This document shows, piece after piece, positions 5,910 through 10,952 of a stretch of DNA of 64,000 nucleotides; positions within the stretch are counted from its first letter, which is position 1; each line of letters opens with the position of its first letter. The DNA lies in the NCBI GenBank assembly GCA_964016885.1, contig OZ024749.1, positions 33,976,001 to 34,040,000 of the forward strand, read 5' to 3'. A model generated the notes under the pieces. That model was not told the origin of the DNA. It did no database searches and saw nothing but the letters and a program-made list of their open reading frames with translations. Origin of the DNA: Eledone cirrhosa. Its lineage: Eukaryota. The position numbers were made by a program, and so were the translations under genes.

Positions 5910-5999
5910 TCCTCTTGATAAGTCGGCAGACCTCGCAAGGACTCTATGTCTTTATGATATATTGTTTTTGTTTATGCCACGAAACTACGTAGTCGAGGA
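5910..5999 (+). ncRNA. Type-I hammerhead ribozyme, U3:A8 core variant
   Basis: tcctc-TTGATAA-gtcggca...tgccac-GAAA-ctacgtag-TC-gagga: stem I 5 bp, long stem II, palindromic stem III, GUC cleavage triplet. Confidence 0.75.
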
Positions 6000-6079
6000 A
6001 TTTAGGAGCTGTTTAGGTATGATACATTTTATTACTAATTATATCTAAATGTTTCTTCTCTCTTCATAATGTATATATA

Positions 6080-6163
<84 letters not shown>

Positions 6164-6223
6164 CATATATATATGTATATATATATATATATATGTATCT
6201 ATATATATATATATACATATATA

Positions 6224-6276
<53 letters not shown>

Positions 6277-6327
6277 CTATATATATATATATATATGTAT
6301 ATATCTATATATATATATATACATATA

Positions 6328-6365
<38 letters not shown>

Positions 6366-6405
6366 TATATATATGTATATATATATATATGTATATATAT
6401 ATATG

Positions 6406-6455
<50 letters not shown>

Positions 6456-6477
6456 CATATATATATGTATATATATG

Positions 6478-6509
<32 letters not shown>

Positions 6510-6531
6510 CATATATATATGTATATATATG

Positions 6532-6563
<32 letters not shown>

Positions 6564-6680
6564 CATATATATATGTATATATATATATGTATATATATAT
6601 ATACATATAATATATATACATATATATATGTATATATATATATATATGTATCCACATATATATATAGAGATATATATATG

Positions 6681-6711
<31 letters not shown>

Positions 6712-6746
6712 TAATATATATATATGTATATGTTTATATATATATG

Positions 6747-6793
<47 letters not shown>

Positions 6794-6802
6794 GTAAATA
6801 TA

Positions 6803-6833
<31 letters not shown>

Positions 6834-6867
6834 ATTTATAGTATATATATATTTATATATGTATATA

Positions 6868-6950
<83 letters not shown>

Positions 6951-7301
6951 TGAAGAGGGCTACCAGTATTGCACAAAAGCTATGGTTATATAATGTGGAC
7001 TGCAAAATCAACGAAACGAAAATCATTATAAAATTGAGGGTAGTGTTATATATGATGCAGTCTTATACACGAGTACATACGGTAAAGTCGTTTTAGCTAC
7101 ACCCAAACCTTACTGCCATTTCTAGACTCTATGTAACGATTCATCTGAGAAAATATTTTGAACATAAGTGAATATATGAAAAATATGAGACATATCTGTT
7201 TTTAAGGAGCTACATACGATAAAACATACGTTCTAGTTTATATGGGTATATACGTTACATTTTACACTTAATCATTCTGATACGGATACTTTATATATAC
7301 A

Positions 7302-7347
<46 letters not shown>

Positions 7348-7487
7348 CATATATATATATTTATATATACATATATATATATTTATATATACATATGTAT
7401 ATATTTATATATACATATATATATATTTATATATACATATATATATTTATATATACATATATATATATTTATATATACATATATATA

Positions 7488-7534
<47 letters not shown>

Positions 7535-7552
7535 ATATATATTTATATATAC

Positions 7553-7583
<31 letters not shown>

Positions 7584-7735
7584 CATATATATACACATAT
7601 ATATATATATACATATATATACACATATATATATATATATACATATATATACACATATATTTATATATACATATATATACACATATATATATATATACAT
7701 ATATATACACATATATTTATATATACATATATATA

Positions 7736-7777
<42 letters not shown>

Positions 7778-7783
7778 TATACA

Positions 7784-7819
<36 letters not shown>

Positions 7820-7820
7820 C

Positions 7821-7866
<46 letters not shown>

Positions 7867-8040
7867 GTATATATATACGCATATATATATATATACGTAT
7901 ATATATATATAAATATATATACGCATATATATATAAAGACGTATGTATATATATATATATACGTATATATATATATGAATATATATACGTATATATATAT
8001 ATACGTATATATATACGTATATATATATATATATATATAT

Positions 8041-8226
8041 TGGGAGCCCCTACATGGGCACACTAGAAGTGGAAGACCAAGGTTAACATATGTTGATGCC
8101 CTAAGAACACACACTGGTCTGTTGGAGACGCAGGACATGGCAGCGATGATGAGGGACAGAGACCGCTGGAGAGAACTCGTCCATGGATCTCGGGAATTTT
8201 ACCCGCCTTAGAAAATAGAATAGAAT
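8041..8226 (+). mobile_element. RTE-clade LINE 3' fragment with (AATAG)n tail
   Basis: [26 protein letters not shown]...[12 protein letters not shown], the typical RTE C-terminal 'GRP...D...DR..WR' motif. Confidence 0.75.
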
Positions 8227-8493
8227 ATATATTAGAAAGTGAGGGTTTTTTTTTTACAAAATGAAAAATAACCGAGGTGTCCAACACGAGTGAAAGTATA
8301 AAAAAAAAGATGAAATCGAAAATGCAACTGGAGTCTTATTTTAAAAAATATATATATATTTATTTGGTTCCTTTACCGGTTTCGCAGTTCTTCTGCTTTT
8401 CAAAAGTAGAGTTGAGATGGAGGGTCTGTAGTTTTTCTCTGAGAATATAATATATATATATTTATATGTACATATATATATACGTATATATAT

Positions 8494-8539
<46 letters not shown>

Positions 8540-8856
8540 GTATATATATATATATATATATACGTATATATATAAATATATATACGTATATATATATGTA
8601 CATATGAATATATATATATTATATTCTCAGAGAAAAACTACAGACCCTCCATCTCAACTCTACTTTTGAAAAGCAGAAGAACTGCGAAACCGGTAAAGGA
8701 ACCAAATAAATATATATATTTTTTTTAAATAAGACTCCAGTTGCATTTTCGATTTAATCTTTTTTTTTATACTTTCACTCGTGTTGGACACCTCGGTTAT
8801 TTTTCATTTTGTAAAAAAAAAACCCTCACTTTCTAATATATATTCTATTCTATTTT
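8212..8856. mobile_element. ~240-bp inverted pLTR-like arms (8212-8450 / 8619-8856) around a TA spacer, each with a U3:A8 HHR
   Basis: Near-perfect reverse complements; HHRs at 8371-8406 (-) and 8663-8698 (+), each followed by AATAAA. Confidence 0.8.
8663..8698 (+). ncRNA. Minimal type-I hammerhead, U3:A8 core (mirror copy at 8371-8406, -)
   Basis: ctt-TTGAAAA-gcag aagaa ctgc-GAAA-ccgg-TA-aag; stem I is only 3 bp. Confidence 0.6.
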
Positions 8857-8880
8857 ATATATATTTATATATATATATAC

Positions 8881-8930
<50 letters not shown>

Positions 8931-8933
8931 ACG

Positions 8934-8972
<39 letters not shown>

Positions 8973-8979
8973 ATATACG

Positions 8980-9018
<39 letters not shown>

Positions 9019-9025
9019 ATATACG

Positions 9026-9064
<39 letters not shown>

Positions 9065-9069
9065 ATACG

Positions 9070-9104
<35 letters not shown>

Positions 9105-9110
9105 ATATAC

Positions 9111-9209
<99 letters not shown>

Positions 9210-9433
9210 AACAATTAAGTTAAAAATGTACATCCACATATGTATACTGAAATACTAGTATGCATATGAATACACACACGTGTACATATGTAGATGTACC
9301 GAGTTTTTCACTGAACACTTTACTGTGAGTGTCCAGCTATTCTGTATGTAAACACACAGACAAACCGGTTTTTAGAGTCATACTGGTTTTCGAGGAAACA
9401 CCTTTCCTCTATTTTCCAGAAAGCCAGACAAGG

Positions 9434-9478
9434 AATATTGGACTAGTTTCGATGTTGTTACATCTCATCAGCAATATT
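9434..9478 (-). ncRNA. Canonical minimal type-I hammerhead ribozyme
   Basis: Minus strand: aatattg-CTGATGA-gatgt aaca acatc-GAAA-ctag-TC-caatatt; 7-bp stem I, 5-bp stem II, palindromic stem III. Confidence 0.9.
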
Positions 9479-9776
9479 TACCTATCTTCCGGCCTTTCTA
9501 GAGAATCGTAAAAGCACATATCGTTATATGCTTTTTCTATGAAAATTAGTAGTTACTTAAATATAAGTATGTACACGCACATACATATATGTATACAGAC
9601 GTACAGTAGTATGTATATATATATACATACATGCACACATATATATATATATATATGTACGTATGGATTCACCGAACATTTATTATAATGCTCTGTGTGT
9701 TTGTAAACAAACATGCCGTATTAAGCCGTAGTGTCTAGCAACCATCGTTGCTCGTTTGTTCAACATTGACAAAGGA

Positions 9777-9819
9777 ACGCTGTACTAGTTTCAAGCGTAT
9801 TAGCTATCGTCAGCAACGT
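9777..9819 (-). ncRNA. Minimal type-I hammerhead ribozyme
   Basis: Minus strand: acgttg-CTGACGA-tagc taatac gctt-GAAA-ctag-TA-cagcgt. Confidence 0.82.
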
Positions 9820-10107
9820 ATACCTTCCTGTCAGATTGTTGAACTTATATACTTACCTTATGCATATTAACGGCTGAGAAGCCCAATTTGCATATCGAGT
9901 GGGTCAATCGGCCGGGTGCACCGAAAACGATAAACGGAAAAAATGAAACGAAATTTCATTTCCCACTCTTAGTACGGCTGTTACTTAAATATAAGTATGT
10001 ACACGTACATACATATATGTATATACGTATATATATATATATATGTACCAAGGCTCTGATAAAATCAACACCATAAACACCGAGCTGGCATATCTAAGAA
10101 CTGAATA

Positions 10108-10163
10108 ACAGCCTGATGAGGTCATAGCCATTCAATGGCTATCATCGAAATATATATAGCAGT
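10108..10163 (+). ncRNA. Minimal type-I hammerhead in a short pLTR-like insert (10047-10200)
   Basis: acagc-CTGATGA-ggtcatagcca ttcaa tggctatcatc-GAAA-tatata-TA-gcagt, then AATAAA; one stem I mismatch. Confidence 0.75.
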
Positions 10164-10196
10164 AAATAAAGGTTCATGCAATTGACTTATGTTTCG

Positions 10197-10239
<43 letters not shown>

Positions 10240-10242
<3 letters not shown>

Positions 10243-10952
10243 AGTATGTTTTGAAACAGTGAGCGAGTTTGAAATTAGAAAATATATAGCTTTCACCGTA
10301 TTTTTAACTAAAGGAATTTTTCCATTTATCTGAGGGTTCTAAACCCCGTTATCAAGATAAAATTCCTTTAGTTAAAAATACGGTGAACAGCACGGACACT
10401 CTATCTCAAAATTATTTTTGAAAAGCATTTAGAAATGCGCAACCGGTAAAAACTTAAAAACTTAAAACCACAACTGAATACTAACCCATACAATCACTAA
10501 TACTCTTTTATTCCTAATTAAACCATTTTTCAACTGTGAACAATTTGTCAGCATTTTCTATTCCGTTTACCAATAAATAATAACTTGTGTGTTACACCTC
10601 TATTCTTTTAACTATCTGAAGACGGCGTATATATGTGTTTGGTATGTATATTTAATCTTGATAATTTGTATAATTTTGTATAATTTTGTACATAGATCTG
10701 TTGAATATGCATACCAATTCTAACACATATATATCCTAGAAACGATCGTTAAATAATGAACTTTTTTTGTTTAATATAAGGAATTGTTTATTCATTATTT
10801 GTTTAATATTTTATCTTGACTCTGTATACCGTTTATCTTTCACCGAAAGTGGTTTTTCATTACATCTCTTCTTTCCATGATATCCGGAATACATTGAGTT
10901 CTTCATACGGATTGGACACTACCGTAAACTCTTGGTAGATTTATCTACATTA
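10240..10952 (+). mobile_element. PLE pLTR-like element with 5' fold-back (10292-10387) and two tandem HHR-like motifs
   Basis: HHR-like 10415-10451 (TTGAAAA..gcattt/aaatgc..GCAA ccgg TA) and 10611-10756 (CTGAAGA, ~115-nt stem II, GAAAcgatcgTT); 10387-10575 recurs inverted at 56158-56346; TA flanks. Confidence 0.65.

What the first reader, a model, noticed from the sequence alone, without database searches (positions are those of the whole stretch)
5910..10451. Three distinct families use the compensatory U3:A8 hammerhead core (TTGANAA)
Seen: TTGATAA (5915), TTGAAAA (8666 and its mirror copy) and TTGAAAA (10418 and its copy near 56310), each with paired stem II, palindromic stem III and an NUH site. 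Known: C3-G8 is a tertiary Watson-Crick pair in the active HHR and U3-A8 is a tolerated but uncommon swap. Inference: the double change in different sequence contexts suggests retained function rather than decay; standard CUGANGA searches would miss all of these.
Basis: partly seen in the sequence, partly recalled or inferred. Interest (0 to 1): 0.75.

Follow-up and report, generated by a model that had tools for sequence, protein, structure and literature searches.

The report
Penelope hammerheads, one doubly mutated
The three motifs are hammerhead-type RNA motifs in very abundant jumping elements of an animal genome; their swapped U-A core pair is already in print, but one young, intact family of over 6,000 copies has also changed a second, normally fixed core letter and likely still gets cut at the predicted site.

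Summary
The motifs are real minimal type I hammerheads, and U3-A8 is fixed in each family (98.7% of 11,947 copies in the largest). They are not three independent swaps. Sites 8666 and 10418 lie in homologous pLTRs of two sister Penelope-like retrotransposons (RT about 55% identical) in a clade that is U3-A8 throughout. Site 5915 belongs to an unrelated, protein-free 591-nt tandem retrozyme. U3-A8 in Penelope hammerheads was published in 2014, and this scan noted it before on other DNA.

I found no report of this core in three literature searches; one key paper was not held.

Genomic 5' ends step up at the predicted cut in the 8666 family (sharp) and in the A13C family (a plateau, weaker), but not in the retrozyme. 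Best reading: slow, dimer- and protein-dependent ribozymes that cut a minority of transcripts and are not required for insertion. Whether the A13C form cuts or is a tolerated dead relic is open; no cleavage or RNA data were obtained.

The parts
5900..6074 (+). Family A: 5'-truncated copy of a protein-free 591-nt tandem unit (retrozyme-like), set in (TA)n
   Evidence: 97% to a tandem-array copy; 591-nt spacing of genomic copies; longest ATG-started frame 75 aa
5910..5999 (+). Family A hammerhead: stem I 5910-5914/5995-5999, U3-A8 core 5915-5921, long bulged stem II 5922-5980, GAAA 5981-5984, palindromic stem III 5985-5992, predicted cut after 5994
8225..8450 (-). Family B: inverted (fold-back) pLTR stub; hammerhead U3 at 8403
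8620..8845 (+). Family B: 3' pLTR stub of an RT + GIY-YIG Penelope-like element, ending in (TA)n
   Evidence: coding frames upstream of the same pLTR in L121
8663..8698 (+). Family B hammerhead: 3-bp stem I, U3-A8 core 8666-8672, 4-bp stem II 8673-8685, GAAA 8686-8689, 4-nt palindrome 8690-8693, predicted cut after 8695
   Evidence: 11,947 exact genomic matches
10386..10616 (+). Family C: pLTR stub of a young autonomous Penelope-like element
   Evidence: 99.6% to the pLTR of the full-length copy L130
10415..10451 (+). Family C hammerhead variant: 3-bp stem I, U3-A8 core 10418-10424, 5-bp stem II 10425-10438, G12-C13-A14-A15 at 10439-10442 (A13C at 10440), 4-nt palindrome 10443-10446, predicted cut after 10448
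   Evidence: 6,361 genomic matches, C13 in 98 of the first 100 listed
56130..57380 (-). Second family C copy: end of the coding frame, 3' UTR and pLTR; hammerhead U3 at 56314, also C13
9418..9489 (-). Canonical C3-G8 hammerhead of another family (internal positive control)
   Evidence: Rfam Hammerhead_HH9 E 3.9e-9

Best explanation
The three motifs are minimal hammerhead motifs with a fixed U3-A8 pair, carried in the terminal repeats of two sister Penelope-like retrotransposons (B, C) and in an unrelated protein-free tandem retrozyme (A); they likely cut slowly, as dimers and with protein help, and family C, which has also fixed A13C, likely still gets cut in a minority of transcripts. Shown: identity and copy number of the elements, fixation of U3-A8 and of C13, homology of B and C, conservation of the pair across a clade whose stem II changes compensatorily. 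Inferred: one origin of U3-A8 for the B/C clade; pairing of two transcripts through the palindromic stem III; cleavage after the NUH; reverse transcription starting 100-150 nt downstream of the motif, mostly on uncut (or re-ligated) RNA, so that most copies keep the whole motif and about 1-2% stop at the cut end. Insertion likely does not depend on the cut, which would let a weakened core such as C13 spread.
For: PLE identity: RVT_1 and GIY-YIG in a 784-aa open frame, direct pLTR-ORF-pLTR copy with 4,805-nt period (L130). B/C homology: (55.7% RT, 54.1% EN). Pair under selection across families: 8 C3-G8 and 6 U3-A8 clusters, 0 C3-A8 or U3-G8, among 19 printed of 23 clusters; other members of the same-palindrome clade 238 U3-A8, 12 U3-G8, 3 C3-A8, 1 C3-G8, with N7 free and stem II pairs swapped. 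Predicted dimers pair through the palindrome. 5' ends: B about 260 around the cut against about 83 in a matched stem II window, with a peak at +1 (chi-square p 0.0004-0.008). C about 31 at +1 against 3 at an upstream A-run. A Poseidon PLE hammerhead is protein-assisted and not needed for insertion in vitro (PMC11167929, passages). A13 changes cost 10-100-fold, less than C3, G8 or G12 (PMC4075628 citing earlier work, one passage).
Against: No cleavage assay and no RNA data. In C the 5' ends form a plateau, not a peak: about 31 at +1 against 22-25 at the same sequence context 8 nt downstream (p 0.34), and only about 2-fold over a 12-nt upstream window. None of 70 near-full-length C copies starts at +1. 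Family A shows no step at its cut. Stem I is not predicted to form in B or C, and a 5' hairpin that hides U3-A6 is predicted instead. In a type III hammerhead pairwise scan only the G:C swap rescued the 3-8 pair (PMC9901934, passages). The truncation classes were read by eye from the first 100 listed rows.
Confidence: 0.6

Rival explanations
1. A and B carry working U3-A8 hammerheads, but family C's is dead: A13C on top of U3-A8 and a 3-bp stem I abolishes cutting, and the element spread anyway because the ribozyme is dispensable. The step in C 5' ends would come from reverse-transcriptase stalling just 3' of stems II/III or from A/T-rich microhomology.
For: A13 is part of the core consensus used to reject candidates (PMC3088659). 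All other clusters with a palindromic stem III keep A13. No +1 peak in C, none among long copies. Naiad PLEs reach very high copy numbers without canonical hammerheads (PMC8557442).
Against: C keeps every other core letter, a perfect stem II with a compensatory pair against B, and the palindrome, in both the young and an older subfamily. 5' ends are scarce at -2/-1 (2 rows) and common at the equivalent place one repeat downstream (16 rows, p 0.014), which puts the step at the scissile bond.
Confidence: 0.27
2. Family C RNA is cut in trans: a B-type (A13) or other clade transcript pairs through the shared palindrome and lends its intact core.
For: B, C and the other clade members share the same 6-nt palindrome; the predicted B:C duplex (-22.1 kcal/mol) lies between B:B and C:C.
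Against: B's 5' stem I strand makes only 2 pairs with C's 3' strand and no favourable duplex is predicted; needs co-expression.
Confidence: 0.07
3. The motifs are kept for a non-catalytic role (RNA dimerisation or a binding site for the element's protein), and none cuts in the animal.
For: Most copies keep the uncut motif; very low in vitro activity of minimal hammerheads and this possibility raised by the authors (PMC4209133).
Against: Strict 3-8 Watson-Crick covariation across families fits the active fold; the sharp +1 peak in B.
Confidence: 0.06

Closest known systems
Minimal hammerheads of metazoan Penelope-like elements, U3-A8 variant of Schistosoma mansoni Cercyon (Cervera and De la Pena 2014, PMC4209133; parts 1-2 of 4 read, supplement file 2 searched)
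   Same: Type I, short palindromic stem III, G10.1-C11.1, U3-A8 (about 1,300 hits there), in pLTRs, mostly single or inverted stubs.
   Different: No extra nucleotide between A9 and G10.1; stem I only 3 bp in B and C; family C has C13, not seen in the parts read.
Natural core variants of hammerheads (Perreault et al. 2011, PMC3088659; passages)
   Same: Natural C3-G8 to U3-A8 covariation reported.
   Different: The passages seen list A6C, a U inserted in GAAA and a 15.1-16.1 swap, not A13C; figures not seen.
C-terminal GIY-YIG Penelope-like elements of Neptune/Nematis type (Craig et al. 2021, PMC8557442; passages)
   Same: RT then GIY-YIG, CX4CxxC linker, partial tandem and inverted pLTRs, (TA)n targets.
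   Different: Family C has a separate 5' frame overlapping the RT frame in -1; clade not placed on a tree here.
Animal non-LTR retrozymes (bioRxiv 10.64898/2026.07.22.740005, part 1 of 5 read)
   Same: Family A: protein-free head-to-tail units, one type I hammerhead per unit.
   Different: U3-A8 core and a 59-nt stem II; no parent PLE found; circular RNA not shown.

Membership tests
Type I hammerhead (minimal, PLE type) | Core U4 G5 A6, A9, G12, A14, A15.1-U16.1, H17 | tested here: met
   All three sites
Type I hammerhead (minimal, PLE type) | Watson-Crick pair between positions 3 and 8 | tested here: met
   U3-A8 in A, B, C
Type I hammerhead (minimal, PLE type) | A13 | tested here: not met
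   Met in A and B; family C has C13, so C is a variant, not a consensus member
Type I hammerhead (minimal, PLE type) | Stem II closed by G10.1-C11.1 and palindromic stem III | tested here: met
Type I hammerhead (minimal, PLE type) | Stem I of 4-5 bp | tested here: inconclusive
   5 bp in A; 3 bp in B and C and not in the predicted folds; 2 bp is reported for D. virilis
Type I hammerhead (minimal, PLE type) | Site-specific self-cleavage | not testable with these tools
   Only indirect genomic 5'-end statistics
EN+ Penelope-like element (B, C) | RT followed by GIY-YIG endonuclease | tested here: met
   Pfam PF00078 and PF01541 for C; B by homology to C
EN+ Penelope-like element (B, C) | pLTRs, direct and inverted, hammerhead inside | tested here: met
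   C: L130 direct repeats and inverted copies. B: 3' pLTR and inverted stubs only; no full-length B seen
EN+ Penelope-like element (B, C) | Single open reading frame | tested here: not met
   C has two overlapping frames in the copies read
Neptune or Nematis clade | Placement in the RT tree | not tested
   Only the linker motif was read from the protein and compared
Non-LTR retrozyme (A) | Non-coding tandem units, each with a type I hammerhead | tested here: met
Non-LTR retrozyme (A) | Circular RNA intermediate | not testable with these tools
   No RNA run was searched for A

The most novel reading that the evidence does not exclude
Family C encodes a working hammerhead with three non-consensus core letters (U3, A8, C13) and a 3-bp stem I, made active by dimerisation and the element's own protein. 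With its A13 sister family B in the same genome it is a natural paired experiment on how far the hammerhead core can drift under protein help and on whether Penelope elements need the cut.
Probability: 0.4. Interest if true: 0.62.

Novelty: new variant of a known kind. Interest (0 to 1): 0.4.

Why it matters
The role of hammerheads in Penelope elements is an open question (PMC8557442 and PMC11167929, passages). A young, intact family that amplified to over 6,000 copies with a changed conserved core letter, beside a sister that kept it, makes the question testable either way: an active C13 core would widen the known hammerhead core and search descriptors; a dead one would show in nature that the cut is dispensable. 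The U3-A8 swap itself is known and matters mainly for annotation: the three families hold about 22,700 motifs that C3-G8 models miss.

Tried and rejected
Independent origin of U3-A8 in all three families: rejected for B and C; undecided for A, which shows no similarity to B or C beyond chance 13-16-nt matches and whose relatives seen all keep U3-A8. Linking A to the PLE coding fragment at about 5390-5460: rejected, since A arrays elsewhere begin and end in (TA)n with no coding frame. An alternative register giving family C a GAAA from the stem II loop: rejected by inspection (no A15.1-U16.1 pair, no closed stem II). A sharp +1 peak in C: suggested by the sample (Fisher p 0.003-0.008), not upheld by whole-genome counts. 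First cut-site search for A found nothing because the window copy differs from most copies in the anchor. An RT tree of hammerhead states was not built: no coding sequence lay upstream of any C3-G8 motif in the fetched loci. Whole-window Rfam and repeat scans were swamped by (TA)n. Sequencing runs: no RNA holder listed for the C stretch. Folding z-scores of the monomers are unremarkable (-0.8 to -1.3), as is the canonical control (-0.2). Lunse et al. 2017, Nelson and Uhlenbeck 2008 and Martick and Scott 2006 were not held.
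Full report
Setting. The window is 64 kb of a 3.0-Gb animal genome rich in (TA)n. I call the three motifs A (5915), B (8666 and its mirror at 8403) and C (10418 and 56314).

Observation. A descriptor free at positions 3, 7, 8 and 13 recovers all five sites with stem II, a palindromic stem III and an NUH. Two shuffles gave 10.5 hits each, none of the first three kinds. Rfam scores a canonical neighbour and none of the three sites.

Family state. B: 11,947 exact matches. Of these, 104 lack U3; the 100 listed are 52 C, 22 G and 26 A, all with A8. 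Another 48 have U3 without A8: 24 G, 10 U, 14 C. So 11,795 (98.7%) are U3-A8, and no C3-G8 copy is among those listed. C: 6,361 matches; the first 100 all have A8 and 98 have C13; 61 of 64 distinct copies in my loci are U3-A8/C13. A: 4,359 matches, 99 of the first 100 with A8; 59 of 59 distinct copies U3-A8. These counts show the state of the source elements. They do not show selection, because copies decay neutrally after insertion.

What the elements are. B and C are 3' terminal repeats of Penelope-like retrotransposons. C has copies with a 784-aa open frame that matches RVT_1 and GIY-YIG, and a direct pLTR-ORF-pLTR copy with a 4,805-nt period (L130). It is young: median mismatch 0.5% to the window copy in 20 of 20 loci. 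B's coding frames lie upstream of its pLTR in L121. B and C are sisters: 55.7% identical in RT and 54.1% in the endonuclease, 75.6% over 123 nt around the motif. A is a protein-free 591-nt unit in head-to-tail arrays that start and end in (TA)n, as described for non-LTR retrozymes (bioRxiv 2026.07.22.740005, part 1 of 5). It shows no real similarity to B or C.

Selection on the pair. Across all loci then held, 374 hits fell into 23 clusters; 19 were printed (two or more members, or GAAA). Eight are C3-G8, six U3-A8 with a palindromic stem III, none C3-A8 or U3-G8; the other five are four single hits (G3-U8, U3-C8, C3-C8, G3-G8) and one three-member cluster without stem III. Fisher p is 3e-4, but related families are not independent. 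Among motifs with the B/C palindrome and a different stem II, the genome holds 238 U3-A8 (control 2; a few are decayed B or C), 12 U3-G8, 1 C3-G8 and 3 C3-A8. In these, position 7 varies and stem II pairs are swapped, and one such family is tied to an endonuclease 55-60% identical to C's. By parsimony U3-A8 is ancestral in this clade and was kept while RT diverged by about 45%. I could not root this on a tree. C13 occurs in C only, in both the young and an older subfamily.

Do they cut? Following an earlier scan note (e1-8643110), I counted copies whose 5' end falls near the predicted cut; classes were read by eye from the first 100 rows listed. B: 292 hits around the cut, 89 of 100 truncated, 29 at +1. 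A matched window in stem II gave 192 hits, 43 of 100 truncated. That is about 260 against 83. The spread within the cut window departs from uniform (p 0.0004-0.008); my correction for chance matches gives about 15 per base at -2/-1, 108 at +1 and 60 at +2/+3. C: 34 hits at +1, 28 of 30 checked truncated. An upstream A-run gave 8 hits, 3 truncated. The identical context 8 nt downstream gave 90 hits, 22-25 truncated. Ends at -2/-1 are rare, 2 rows against 16 one repeat downstream. Over 12-nt windows the excess is only about 2-fold. So C shows a step at the cut, not a peak. Of 146 copies that reach the start of the first frame, 70 were examined: 48 start well upstream, 2 at -2, 20 downstream, none at +1. 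A: 145 hits; of the first 100, 30 end at -5 to -1 and 60 at +1 to +7, with 14 at +1 and 12 at -5; no clear step. Stalling of reverse transcriptase at the folded motif and A/T microhomology are not excluded.

Mechanism. Predicted dimers of B and C pair through the palindrome and keep stem II, but stem I does not form, so unaided activity should be low. This fits the low in vitro activity of minimal hammerheads (PMC4209133) and the protein-assisted, insertion-independent hammerhead of an Anolis PLE (PMC11167929, passages). Copies end 100-150 nt downstream of the motif in (TA)n, so reverse transcription likely starts there and mostly reads through an uncut or re-ligated motif. A13 changes are reported to cost 10-100-fold, against over 100-fold for C3, G8 and G12 (PMC4075628, one passage citing earlier work). 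A weak cut that is not needed for insertion would explain both the spread of C13 and the small step.

Against. A pairwise scan of a type III hammerhead found only the G:C swap to rescue the 3-8 pair (PMC9901934, passages), so U3-A8 activity depends on context. PLEs without canonical hammerheads can be very successful (PMC8557442, passages), so C may carry a dead motif.

Prior art. U3-A8 is reported in Schistosoma PLE hammerheads, about 1,300 hits (PMC4209133, parts 1-2 of 4), and as natural covariation (PMC3088659, passages). This scan has noted it in at least 13 genomes. For A13C, no paper listed or 85 contains the term, one search gave no natural example in the two papers I opened from it afterwards, and the scan's notes have none. 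The library lacks Lunse et al. 2017 (seen only in a reference list), and supplement file 1 of PMC4209133 was not searched; both may bear on this.

Verdict. The finding as written is a real but known variant with overstated independence. The part worth a bench test is the U3-A8/C13 core of family C.

Noticed in passing
L130 (- strand, about 4630-4700), L124, L125; family C: Family C has a 5' frame of about 435 codons with no Pfam match that overlaps the RT-endonuclease frame in -1. A U-UUU-UUA heptamer (a slippery-site type recalled from retroviruses) sits in the overlap; its U run is unchanged in 28 of 28 matches, and 10 of 19 distinct copies keep it in frame with the first ATG, 5 without a stop. 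Possible -1 frameshift in a PLE; no strong downstream structure predicted. Whether relatives keep it is open.
   Followed up: partly
window 8652-8669 and 10406-10421; 5905-5914: B and C are both predicted to fold a small 5' hairpin that pairs with U3-A6 of the core, and A has a 5' hairpin able to compete with stem I. Could be an off-switch; not consistent across other clade members.
   Followed up: partly
L250, L284, L288; L067: Further U3-A8 hammerhead families with other palindromes (6 and 10 nt), elements not identified.
   Followed up: no
window 9471 (-), 10113 (+), 31835 (-): Canonical C3-G8 hammerheads of three other families; the 9471 family forms 466-nt tandem arrays in L138.
   Followed up: partly
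L349, L352, L353, L355, L360: Five of 30 family C copies that start at +1 are joined directly to internal coding sequence of the same element, as if the enzyme jumped templates at the cut end.
   Followed up: no
G000:C1:348.86-348.95 Mb (L134, L135): A tandem array of about 9.6-kb units, each with a B stub carrying C3-A8 and a neighbouring 187-codon cysteine-rich frame; it inflates the C3-A8 count by several copies.
   Followed up: no
window 4830-5460: Fold-back end of another PLE, with the last codons of its endonuclease frame matching L062.
   Followed up: no
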